64,000 bases of DNA from the human T2T-CHM13v2.0 reference genome, Homo sapiens. The stretch lies in NCBI RefSeq assembly GCF_009914755.1, contig NC_060928.1. One strand, 5' to 3'. This document shows, in pieces, positions 9,061-31,388 of this stretch. Under the pieces are notes generated by a model. That model worked only from the letters and a program-made list of their open reading frames with translations. It did no database searches and was not told where the DNA came from. The stretch's first letter is position 1. The number at the start of each line of letters is the position of its first letter. Position numbers and translations under genes: made by a program.

Positions 9061-9108
9061 CAATATTTAGATGAGACCACAATATTCAGATGAGACCACA
9101 ATATTCAG
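9061..9108. repeat. 19-bp tandem duplication, about 2.5 copies of CAATATT(C/T)AGATGAGACCA
   Basis: Read directly from the sequence. Confidence 0.9.
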
Positions 9109-29399: not shown

Positions 29400-30480
29400 G
29401 GGGACAGGAGAGGGAACGGCGCGATGGGGACAGGCTCCTTCCCTACAAGCCAGCCCACGCAACTGTGTGCGCGCACCTTCCCAGCAGCGGCCGACCGAGA
29501 GGCGCCGAGGGCCGCCCAGGCCTAGCGCTCGGGCTGCACGGAAACTCCCAACCCTCCGGCGGGCTCGGGCCTCGCAACTTCACAACCAGCCGGCGGAAAG
29601 CAAGAAGATGCGAGGTGGGGGCGTCAGCAGCCTCACGAAACCTACCATGGGCCAGGCGGGGAACAAGGCCTCAACATTCACCCCAGCCACACTTACACTG
29701 CCCAACCGACCAGAGATTCGAGGCGAGAACAAAACAAGCAGAAGACCCGACGCCTGGGAGAGCTTCCCTTGTTCCAGGGCCCAATAGGAGCACAGGGTGG
29801 ACGGGGGCGGGTGTGCGGCGAGTGTCGCGGATCCCCGGGCGTGCCCGCGAGGCGCACACGGAGGGACGGAGGGGCGCGGGGGCGCGTGCACGCGGCCCGG
29901 GAGGGATCTCGCGCCAGGTCCCTCACGGCGCCCACGTACCTGGCTGTAGCTGCGCGTCGGGACGGCGGCCGCCGCCGCCAGCGACTGCGGCAGCAGAGAG
30001 GCACGGAGGGCAGGGTAGGACGCGGCGGCCGCGGCCGCGGCAGAGGTGGCCACAGCGGGAGGCCCCGCCAGCCTCCCGGGAGGCACAGGCCCGGTCTGGA
30101 GGCCACGCGTCTGGGAGGCAGCGGCCGCGGCGGCCCCGAGCAGCAGCAGCAGGCGGCGGCGGCCCGAGACGCCCGACGGGATAGAGCCAGCGGCGGAGTA
30201 GAAGGGCAGGCAGGCGGCGCCGGTGCGCCGGCAGCTGCTGCAGTTACAGCCGCAGCCCCGGAGCAGCGCCCCGAGTACCCAGCGCGTGCCGGCCATGGAC
30301 TCCGGAGGCGGCGCAGGGCCTGAAGGCAGCTGCTCCAGCAGCGATGGTGGAACGGAAGTGGAATCCAGGGCCGGTTGGGGGTGGGGTGTGCCTGGCACAT
30401 GCGCCGCGGGCACTGGGTGGGGGGCCTCCGAGAGTCGGAAGGAGGTGGAGGAGAGCGCGACGCTCCGCCCAGTCTCCGCC
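29400..30480. promoter_or_regulatory. CpG island / GRSF1 promoter and exon 1
   Basis: Abrupt GC- and CpG-dense block in otherwise CpG-depleted DNA. ETS/GABP-like CGGAAGTG at 30353-30360; NRF-1-like GCACATGCGC at 30395-30404 (one mismatch to the GCGCATGCGC core). No TATA box seen. Confidence 0.9.
29940..30296 (-). CDS. GRSF1: GRSF1 exon 1 coding part (357 nt): mitochondrial targeting presequence plus Ala-rich region
   Basis: ATG at 30296 gives MAGTRWVLGALLRGCGCNCSSCRR...PTRSYSQ: Arg/Ala-rich, no acidic residues, ends in an R-S-Y-S R-3 cleavage-like motif. Donor CAG|GTACGT at 29939. Confidence 0.97.
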
Positions 30481-30483
30481 CTT

Positions 30484-30723
30484 GGGCGGGGCTGCCCATG
30501 GTTTGGGCGGGGCTGCCCATGGTTTGGGCGGGGCTGCCCATGGTTTGGGCGGGGCTGCCCATGGTTTGGGCGGGGCTGCCCATGGTTTGGGCGGGGCTGC
30601 CCATGGTTTGGGCGGGGCTGCCCATGGTTTGGGCGGGGCTGCCCATGGTTTGGGCGGGGCTGCCCATGGTTTGGGCGGGGCTGCCCATGGTTTGGGCGGG
30701 GCTGCCCATGGTTTGGGCGGGGC
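30484..30723. repeat. perfect 21-bp minisatellite (GGGCGGGGCTGCCCATGGTTT)x11 plus GGGCGGGGC
   Basis: Direct count: 11 identical units (30484-30714) plus 9 nt, giving 12 GC boxes and 11 CCATGG sites. Confidence 0.99.
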
Positions 30724-31388
30724 CCGGGGAAGTGGGTGCAATCGAACTGCTCTTTTTTCAGGCGGTGGAAACTGAGGCCCAAAGTAAGTGAGGCTAGGGG
30801 CCTGGCGCAGTGACTCATTCGTAGTGACTCATTCTTGTAATCCTAGCACTTTGGCAGGCAGAGGCGGGTGGACTGCCTGAGGTCAGGAGTTCGAGACCAA
30901 CCTAGGCAACACGGTGAAATCCCGTCTCTACTAAAATACAAAAAATTAGGTCGGACGCGGTGGCTCCCGCCTGTAATCCCAGCACTTTAGTAGGCCGAGG
31001 TAGGGCGGATCACCTGAGGTCAGCAGTTCAAGACCAGCCTGGCCAACATGGTGAAACTGTGTCTCTACTAAAAACACAAAAATTAGCCGGGTGTGGTGAC
31101 GGGTGCCCGTAATCCCAGCTACTCAGGAGGCTGAGGCAGGAGAATCGCTTGAACCCAGGAGGCGGAGGTTGCAGTGAGCCAAGATCGTGCCACCGCACTG
31201 CAGCCTGGGCGACAGAGTGAGACGCCATCTCCAAACAAACAAACAAAAAAATTAGGTTAGGGCCATCCTGCTCTGGGTAGGGCCGAGAGCTGTAGCACAA
31301 GTCTGTGCTGCCCCGCGCTGTGCCACCGAAACCCGTGGTGTGAGTGGCTAAAGAACCCTTTCTGAAAGGAATTGTGATACCTTGGTTA

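What the first reader, a model, noticed from the sequence alone, without database searches (positions are those of the whole stretch)
30484..30723. Perfect 11 x 21-bp GC-box array in the GRSF1 promoter: possible copy-number control of expression
Seen: 11 identical units, each with a consensus Sp/KLF box GGGCGGGGC (12 boxes in total), starting about 190 bp upstream of the ATG and next to ETS- and NRF-1-like motifs. Established: 21 bp is about two helical turns, so the boxes lie on one DNA face; the SV40 early promoter also uses Sp1-binding 21-bp repeats. Inference: zero divergence among units despite a CpG in each implies recent expansion or homogenisation and probable length polymorphism. Copy number could tune the dose of a mitochondrial RNA-processing factor, or trigger methylation silencing if expanded.
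Basis: partly seen in the sequence, partly recalled or inferred. Interest (0 to 1): 0.8.

Follow-up and report, generated by a model that had tools for sequence, protein, structure and literature searches.

The report
GC-box minisatellite in GRSF1 promoter
A perfectly regular 21-base repeat carrying twelve Sp1-type binding boxes sits just upstream of the human GRSF1 gene and varies in length between people, but the one published test found no link between its length and GRSF1 expression.

Summary
Window 30482-30723 holds 11.5 flawless copies of TTGGGCGGGGCTGCCCATGGT. That gives 12 GGGCGGGGC boxes against 0.08 expected, lying 123-364 bp upstream of the RefSeq start site of GRSF1. The repeat is unique in the genome.

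It is already catalogued as a length-variable minisatellite, though only in supplementary tables. VNTRseek lists it as a common VNTR: GRCh38 also has 11.5 copies, 168 of 2504 people carry short alleles, and the commonest call is -9 copies. Lu et al. 2021 give a mean of 260.8 bp (SD 25.8) in 18 long-read assemblies, a variant unit reading GGGAGGGGC, and "eqtl False" in GTEx, with poor length accuracy of 0.23-0.30.

So polymorphism is shown. Dose control of expression is not supported, but it was weakly tested. Genome-wide, 21-bp spacing of this box is no commoner than 22-bp spacing. No G-quadruplex is favoured.

I read it as a young, slippage-prone Sp/KLF-site minisatellite whose common length variation is largely buffered. 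One open lead remains: an islet GRSF1 eQTL that colocalises with type 2 diabetes has no resolved causal variant. It is a new member of a known kind, of moderate-to-low interest.

The parts
30482..30723 (+). Minisatellite: 11 full units of TTGGGCGGGGCTGCCCATGGT plus an 11-bp partial unit. It carries 12 GGGCGGGGC boxes, with the G-rich strand on +, which is antisense to GRSF1.
   Evidence: Same locus as GRCh38 chr4:70840013-70840254.
30462..30481 (-). Two further GC-box cores (CCGCCC at 30465 and 30476) in the opposite orientation, abutting the proximal edge of the array.
30353..30359 (+). ETS-type CGGAAGT at the annotated start site.
   Evidence: consensus recalled. The start site at 30359 comes from the hub's annotation.
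30398..30404 (+). NRF-1 half-site-like CATGCGC. The full consensus is not matched.
30728..30733 (+). GGAAGT ETS core 5 bp beyond the distal edge of the array.
30715..30736 (+). The only canonical G-quadruplex motif (loops of 7 or less) in 30301-30800. It is formed by the last box plus the distal flank.
29940..30359 (-). GRSF1 exon 1 (start site at 30359, ATG at 30296), the promoter target of the array.
   Evidence: Hub annotation. The ATG is seen.

Best explanation
This is a young, unstable GC-rich minisatellite (a VNTR) forming the distal part of the TATA-less CpG-island promoter of GRSF1. A 21-bp segment bounded by the direct repeat TTGGGCGGGGC was multiplied by slipped-strand mispairing or unequal exchange. 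Each strand can fold into a ladder of short hairpins, which would help such slippage. Every unit carries a consensus Sp/KLF decamer, so the array raises the number of GC boxes upstream of the start site from a handful to 14. I infer that Sp-family factors occupy it and help keep the promoter open and unmethylated. I also infer that promoter output is close to saturated, so common length variation (about 11-14 units) changes GRSF1 mRNA little or not at all. Only the short alleles of about 2.5 units, units with a broken box, or a large expansion would be expected to matter. Shown: the structure, its uniqueness, its polymorphism, and the absence of a published length-expression association. Inferred: Sp/KLF occupancy, the slippage mechanism and saturation.
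For: Structure: a perfect 11.5 x 21 bp array with sharp edges. It begins and ends with the same 11-mer.

Uniqueness: the two-unit 42-mer occurs only here in the assembly. The unit core has only 5 other hits at 2 mismatches.

Slippage substrate: both strands fold better than all 200 shuffles, as repeated hairpins (z -3.75 and -4.29).

GC boxes: all 14 GGGCGG cores upstream of the start site are the 12 array boxes plus the 2 adjacent inverted ones. Twelve of 12 boxes match the recalled Sp1 decamer KGGGCGGRRY.

Chromatin: VNTRseek annotates the locus as overlapping a CpG island, ENCODE transcription-factor clusters and DNase clusters.

Polymorphism: 168 of 2504 genomes carry alleles short enough for 150-bp reads, and 87 are called -9/-9. 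Eighteen long-read assemblies average 260.8 bp with SD 25.8.

Buffering: 'eqtl False' at this locus in a 20-tissue GTEx scan of 30,362 VNTRs. GRSF1 is absent from the held supplements of two later VNTR-expression studies.

Ordinary class: other GC-box minisatellites with 20-22 bp periods exist.
Against: No occupancy data naming Sp1, Sp3 or any KLF were available here. The ENCODE cluster flag does not name a factor.

The negative eQTL result is weak. Short-read length accuracy at this locus was 0.23-0.30, the paper's lowest class. Pancreatic islets were not tested. The held VNTRseek supplement was cut when stored, so its LCL expression table could not be checked.

The hub's annotation lists a RefSeq 'silencer' at 30377-30626, covering the first 7 units or so. 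That fits repression better than activation.

A GRSF1 cis-eQTL does exist in islets, and its causal variant is unresolved.

The ancestral state and the age of the array could not be examined, because no other primate sequence was available.
Confidence: 0.6

Rival explanations
1. One reading: unit number sets GRSF1 dose. Each added Sp/KLF box raises transcription, as in reporter work on other promoter VNTRs, so the array acts as a tuning knob for a mitochondrial RNA-processing factor.
For: There are twelve consensus boxes on one helical face within 364 bp of the start site. Alleles range from about 2.5 to more than 12 units. There is a precedent: in the TRIB3 promoter 33-bp VNTR, more copies give more transcription and higher mRNA (abstract). 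GRSF1 expression is under cis-genetic control in islets, and the lead SNP has a posterior of only 34%.
Against: The locus is marked 'eqtl False' in GTEx. GRSF1 does not appear in the held expression-VNTR tables. Estimated length shows low population differentiation (len.vst 0.04), whereas the islet eQTL SNP ranges from 4.5% to 49% between ancestries; this argues against tight linkage, although the length estimates are poor. The hub annotates a 'silencer' over part of the array.
Confidence: 0.2
2. The array is repressive or attracts methylation. Longer arrays, or arrays in ageing cells, would nucleate CpG methylation or bind a repressor and so lower GRSF1.
For: The hub's RefSeq table lists a silencer at 30377-30626, overlapping the array. 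GRSF1 promoter methylation rises about two-fold and expression falls in senescent fibroblasts (PMC6447602, passages). GC-rich promoter repeats can silence genes when expanded, for example the CSTB dodecamer (search listings only).
Against: The array is CpG-poor relative to its surroundings: 12 CpGs, observed/expected 0.44, against 0.87 for 29900-30481. The senescence paper does not mention the repeat, and its assayed amplicon was not located. No expanded allele is reported; SD is 25.8 bp among 18 assemblies. I could not see which assay the 'silencer' label rests on.
Confidence: 0.1
3. The array acts through non-B DNA or RNA structure. One version is G-quadruplexes on the G-rich strand. Another is a G-rich upstream antisense RNA that GRSF1 protein itself recognises.
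For: Each box gives two G-runs. With loops of up to 15 nt there are 34 overlapping quadruplex start positions on the + strand and none on the - strand.
Against: With loops of 12 nt or less there is no quadruplex motif inside the array; the single hit is at its distal edge, 30715-30736. Quadruplex-aware folding chose hairpins only, with no G4 positions. No transcript on the + strand is annotated in the hub's table.
Confidence: 0.04
4. The array is an assembly or collapse artefact of this genome.
For: None found.
Against: GRCh38 carries the same 242-bp, 11.52-copy array. The locus was also annotated in 18 independent long-read assemblies.
Confidence: 0.01

Closest known systems
TRIB3 promoter 33-bp VNTR (PMC7425993; abstract read)
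   Same: A promoter-proximal minisatellite whose unit carries a transcription-factor site. It is length-polymorphic in humans and lies upstream of a housekeeping or stress gene.
   Different: TRIB3 has 1-5 copies with a C/EBP-ATF element, and both reporter and eQTL data show that more copies give more expression. The GRSF1 array has about 2.5 to 12 or more copies of an Sp/KLF box, no reporter data, and a negative (weak) eQTL test. Human specificity is shown for TRIB3 and unknown here.
SV40 early-promoter 21-bp repeats (recalled textbook knowledge; no call)
   Same: A 21-bp period, GC boxes of the GGGCGG type bound by Sp1, and a position just upstream of a start site.
   Different: SV40 has about three repeats with two boxes each, in a viral genome, and they are not length-polymorphic regulatory alleles. 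Here there is one box per unit, 11.5 units, in a cellular gene, and the length varies. Genome-wide, the 21-bp spacing of this box is not favoured, so the shared period is probably coincidence.
ALOX5 promoter Sp1 tandem-repeat polymorphism (PMC13179450; search listing only)
   Same: A variable number of tandem Sp1 boxes in a core promoter, with reported functional and clinical associations.
   Different: ALOX5 is a hexamer microsatellite of a few copies (recalled). The GRSF1 unit is 21 bp with a 12-bp non-box spacer, and no phenotype is known.
CSTB dodecamer promoter repeat, Unverricht-Lundborg disease (PMC9655992 and PMC11006399; search listings only)
   Same: A GC-rich, GC-box-like repeat in a promoter.
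   Different: Disease alleles of CSTB are large expansions. No expanded GRSF1 allele was found in any source I could read.
Other GC-box minisatellites in this genome
   Same: Tandem units of 20-22 bp, each with a GGGCGGGGC box. Examples are chr4:681274-681382, chr5:16875430-16875538 and chr14:98322621-98322717.
   Different: Among the rows listed (the first 100 of 150, 258 and 134 matches), none has more than 5 consecutive pairs at its 20-22 bp period; one 11-bp-period array gives 7 rows. GRSF1 has 11 consecutive pairs. The unlisted rows were not seen.

Membership tests
Minisatellite / VNTR | Head-to-tail tandem copies of a unit of roughly 7-100 bp | tested here: met
   Period 21, 11.5 copies, 100% matches.
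Minisatellite / VNTR | Copy number varies among individuals | tested here: met
   Published tables show it. A non-reference short allele is found in 168 of 2504 genomes, and the major call is -9/-9 in 87. The mean is 260.8 bp with SD 25.8 in 18 assemblies. I did not genotype any genome myself.
Sp/KLF GC-box promoter cluster (SV40 21-bp-repeat type) | Consensus GC box within a few hundred bp upstream of the start site | tested here: met
   Twelve of 12 boxes fit KGGGCGGRRY (recalled consensus), at -123 to -364.
Sp/KLF GC-box promoter cluster (SV40 21-bp-repeat type) | Occupancy by Sp1, Sp3 or a KLF, and box-dependent activation | not testable with these tools
   The only hint is a flag for unnamed ENCODE transcription-factor and DNase clusters.
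Expression-associated VNTR (eVNTR) | Significant association of repeat length with expression of a nearby gene | tested here: not met
   Lu et al. 2021 supplementary table: eqtl False, in a scan of 20 GTEx tissues at 5% FDR. Caveats: length accuracy was 0.23-0.30, and I read the meaning of the column from its name.
Pathogenic GC-rich promoter expansion (CSTB / fragile-site type) | Alleles far beyond the normal range, with hypermethylation and silencing | not tested
   No expanded allele appears. No methylation-by-length data were available.
G-quadruplex-forming minisatellite | Four G-runs with short loops, with the quadruplex favoured over duplex or hairpin | tested here: not met
   There is no motif with loops of 12 or less inside the array. 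Quadruplex-aware folding gave none. Long-loop quadruplexes are not excluded.

The most novel reading that the evidence does not exclude
The promoter minisatellite is the unresolved causal variant behind the human-islet GRSF1 cis-eQTL that colocalises with type 2 diabetes risk. The variation could be its length (alleles of about 2.5 units against 11 or more) or its content of box-broken GGGAGGGGC units. That eQTL has lead SNP rs10433674 with a SNP posterior of only 34%, is annotated 'promoter flanking region', and the protective allele raises GRSF1. The mechanism would be Sp/KLF site dosage at a gene needed for mitochondrial RNA processing in beta cells.
Probability: 0.07. Interest if true: 0.7.

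Novelty: new member of a known kind. Interest (0 to 1): 0.33.

Why it matters
Promoter VNTRs that carry transcription-factor sites are a recognised source of expression variation that SNP-based studies miss (review PMC12776774, sections read). This one is unusually clean. It is the longest run of this exact box at a 20-22 bp period among the genome rows I could see. It supplies nearly all the GC boxes of the promoter of a gene essential for mitochondrial RNA granules. It exists in very short and long forms. GRSF1 has a diabetes-colocalising islet eQTL with no resolved causal variant, so a multiallelic repeat that short reads measure badly is a reasonable suspect. If, as I think more likely, length is buffered, the locus is simply one more polymorphic CpG-island minisatellite.

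Tried and rejected
Literature. Full-text searches for GRSF1 with 'VNTR' (1 paper, unrelated), with 'tandem repeat' (26 papers; none of the 25 listed titles or abstract starts concerns the promoter repeat), for 'GRSF1 promoter' (4 papers), and for the unit string itself (0 papers). Of the four promoter papers, I read passages of three. The YY1 paper, the senescence-methylation paper and the BACH2 paper do not mention the repeat. The fourth, on c-Myb, was not opened.

Supplements. adVNTR-NN lists only a 3'UTR VNTR for GRSF1. Lu 2023 and the 8,222-genome study gave no hit for GRSF1; for Lu 2023 I also found none for nearby coordinates or a recalled, unverified Ensembl id. One Lu 2023 file was not searchable. 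Garg 2021 and Sulovari 2019 are not held, so their read-depth expression/methylation tables and their human-specific expansion lists remain unchecked. The position of rs10433674 was not found: 12 of 20 files were searched and the look-ups were then exhausted. It appears in no other paper.

Other ideas. The G-quadruplex idea is not supported. A dispersed repeat family as the origin is rejected. Selection for 21-bp phasing is not supported. PRDM9, CTCF, NFI, YY1, EGR, MAZ, CCAAT and TATA consensus strings (all recalled) gave no exact match in 29900-30800.

Coding reading. All frames are open across the array, and each unit has an ATG in an ACCATGG context. That ATG is out of phase with the CDS, and the array lies upstream of the annotated start site, so I treat this as a by-product of GC richness.

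No primate or other human assemblies could be reached with these tools.

Full report
WHAT IS THERE. Window 30482-30723 (+) is a tandem array of the 21-bp unit TTGGGCGGGGCTGCCCATGGT: 11 full units plus an 11-bp partial unit. Tandem Repeats Finder scores it at 100% matches and 0% indels. A lag-21 comparison gives 0 mismatches in 221 positions, and periodicity ends abruptly on both sides, with no degenerate copies in the flanks. A search for the unit with up to 3 mismatches finds the 11 perfect copies and nothing else in 64 kb. The box GGGCGGGGC occurs 12 times, all in the array, against 0.08 expected from shuffles. The array begins and ends with the same 11-mer, TTGGGCGGGGC. It is the only multi-copy minisatellite in the window; the other Tandem Repeats Finder rows are Alu dimers or arrays of 2-3 copies.

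POSITION. GRSF1 lies on the minus strand. Using the hub's annotation (start site 30359, ATG at 30296), the array spans -123 to -364 from the start site and begins 186 bp upstream of the ATG. It forms the distal shoulder of a CpG-rich promoter: G+C is 0.70-0.80 from about 29700 to 30700. The array itself is poorer in CpG (observed/expected 0.44) than the proximal promoter (0.87). An Alu-like sequence follows from about 30800 (my reading of the sequence). Upstream of the start site, every GGGCGG core belongs either to the array (12) or to two inverted boxes abutting it at 30465 and 30476. There is an ETS-type CGGAAGT at 30353 on the start site, and a GGAAGT core at 30728 just past the array. For NRF-1 there is only a half-site-like CATGCGC at 30398. 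No TATA or CCAAT box matches (all consensus strings are recalled).

UNIQUENESS. The two-unit 42-mer matches only this locus in the 3.1-Gb assembly (10 overlapping hits). The spacer-centred 21-mer has 11 exact hits here and only 5 other hits at 2 mismatches, against 1 control hit. The unit is therefore not part of a dispersed repeat family.

IS 21 bp SPECIAL? Pairs of this box occur genome-wide 150 times at a 21-bp period (11 of them here), 258 times at 20 bp (inflated by GGGGC runs) and 134 times at 22 bp. The tool warns that such counts are lower bounds. Outside GRSF1, 21 bp (139) is thus no commoner than 22 bp (134). Other GC-box minisatellites exist, for example chr4:681274-681382 and chr5:16875430-16875538 (20 bp) and chr14:98322621-98322717 (22 bp). 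Among the rows listed (the first 100 of each search), none has more than 5 consecutive pairs at its 20-22 bp period, and one 11-bp-period array gives 7 rows; GRSF1 has 11 consecutive pairs. The helical arithmetic is correct, with 0-76 degrees of drift over 11 units. I see no sign, however, that the period was selected rather than inherited from the first duplication.

IT IS ALREADY CATALOGUED AND IT IS POLYMORPHIC. In the supplement of the VNTRseek study (PMC8096271) the locus is TRid 182937807. It is listed at GRCh38 chr4:70840013-70840254, with pattern 21, array 242 bp and 11.52 copies, so GRCh38 and this assembly have the same length. It sits in the file of common VNTRs and is flagged upstream of a gene, in a CpG island, and in ENCODE transcription-factor and DNase clusters. 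Non-reference alleles were seen in 168 of 2504 genomes, there were 2336 no-calls, and the commonest genotype was -9/-9 in 87. The method needs the array plus 10-bp flanks inside a 150-bp read (passages). The reference allele was therefore invisible, and only alleles of about 6 units or fewer could be called. The -9 allele has about 2.5 units, or 53 bp.

In the danbing-tk study (PMC8275641), supplementary file 1 gives chr4:70840011-70840254 with ref.len 243, asm.len 260.8, asm.len.std 25.8 and asm.n 18. It also gives alignment quality 0.996, length accuracies 0.295 and 0.228, len.vst 0.0415, and a most-informative k-mer in which the box reads GGGAGGGGC. The eqtl column reads False. I read the meaning of these columns from their names and from the text passages. 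That study tested 30,362 VNTRs in 20 GTEx tissues and found 346 expression-associated VNTRs at 5% FDR. Accuracies below 0.8 are its lowest class. The published mean corresponds to 12.4 units and the SD to 1.2 units. The distribution behind that SD is unknown to me. The variant k-mer is absent from this assembly, so the perfection of the array is a property of this haplotype and not of the species.

WHAT IS NOT IN PRINT. No paper's main text links GRSF1 with a VNTR or a promoter tandem repeat, or prints the unit. Of the four papers on the GRSF1 promoter, the three I opened do not mention the repeat: YY1, senescence methylation and BACH2. adVNTR-NN lists only a 3'UTR VNTR for GRSF1. GRSF1 is absent from the held supplements of Lu 2023 and the 8,222-genome study. 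Garg 2021 and Sulovari 2019 could not be opened, and the VNTRseek supplement is truncated, so its LCL expression table was not seen.

MECHANISM OF ORIGIN (inferred). Three things fit replication slippage or unequal exchange: an array bounded by an 11-bp direct repeat, its sharp edges, and the hairpin ladders predicted for both strands. The hairpin folds give -68 and -58.3 kcal/mol, z -3.75 and -4.29, and 0 of 200 shuffles fold as well. With recalled rates of 0.5-1 x 10^-9 per bp per year, 242 bp would stay unchanged for 6 million years with probability 0.23-0.48, and the 95% bound is 12-25 million years. The population data are the real evidence of instability.

FUNCTION. Each unit matches the classical Sp1 decamer (consensus recalled). 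I could not assign the 12-bp spacer (CTGCCCATGGTT) to any factor. I infer Sp/KLF occupancy but could not test it. The one length-expression test I found is negative but underpowered. The hub's table marks 30377-30626 as a RefSeq silencer, and I could not see which assay that rests on. The quadruplex idea fails with standard loop limits, and quadruplex-aware folding finds none. The array is open in all reading frames. Each unit carries an ATG in an ACCATGG context, two bases out of phase with the CDS, but the array lies upstream of the annotated start site.

My best reading, at confidence 0.6, is a young, slippage-prone Sp/KLF-site minisatellite whose common length variation is buffered by a promoter that is already saturated. 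The dose model gets 0.2, a repressive or methylation model 0.1, structure-based models 0.04, and an artefact 0.01.

AN OPEN LEAD. A 2025 study (PMC12648100; passages and Table 1) reports that a human-islet GRSF1 eQTL colocalises with a type 2 diabetes signal. The lead SNP is rs10433674, with PP.H4 97% and a SNP posterior of 34%, annotated 'promoter flanking region, active enhancers'. The protective allele raises GRSF1, and the minor-allele frequency runs from 4.5% in Europeans to 49% in African Americans. I could not obtain the SNP's position. Whether it tags a VNTR allele is therefore unknown. The low len.vst argues mildly against this, with the caveat that the length estimates are poor.

VERDICT. 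The predicted polymorphism is confirmed and is already in public catalogues. The regulatory dose model is untested at the bench and unsupported by the only association test. This is a new, unusually regular member of the known class of promoter VNTRs that carry transcription-factor sites.

Noticed in passing
window 9061-9108: A 19-bp tandem repeat (CAATATTCAGATGAGACCA, 2.5 copies) in the GRSF1 3'UTR. The adVNTR-NN catalogue lists it at GRCh38 chr4:70818591-70818651 with alleles of 57-95 bp, not tested for eQTL.
   Followed up: partly
window 29580-30818, minus strand: All reading frames stay open across the array. The frame continuous with the GRSF1 CDS runs back to an ATG at 30818 and reads (PRPNHGQ)n. 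Each unit also holds an ATG in an ACCATGG context, in a different phase. This matters only if transcripts start upstream of the array.
   Followed up: partly
window 30715-30736: The only canonical G-quadruplex motif in 30301-30800 is formed by the last GC box plus the distal flank (GGGCGGGGCCCGGGGAAGTGGG). It overlaps an ETS-like GGAAGT.
   Followed up: no
G000 chr4:681274-681382; chr5:16875430-16875538; chr14:98322621-98322717; chr8:146230283-146230395: Other tandem arrays elsewhere in the same genome in which each unit carries a GGGCGGGGC box, with periods of 20, 20, 22 and 11 bp. GC-box minisatellites are therefore a recurrent class.
   Followed up: no
GRSF1 locus (position of rs10433674 not obtained): A human-islet GRSF1 cis-eQTL colocalises with type 2 diabetes risk. 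The lead SNP posterior is only 34%, and the minor-allele frequency ranges from 4.5% to 49% across ancestries (PMC12648100).
   Followed up: partly
window 30377-30626 and 29717-30370: The hub's RefSeq table calls the proximal two-thirds of the array region a 'silencer' and the adjoining exon-1 region an 'enhancer'. I could not see the underlying assay.
   Followed up: no
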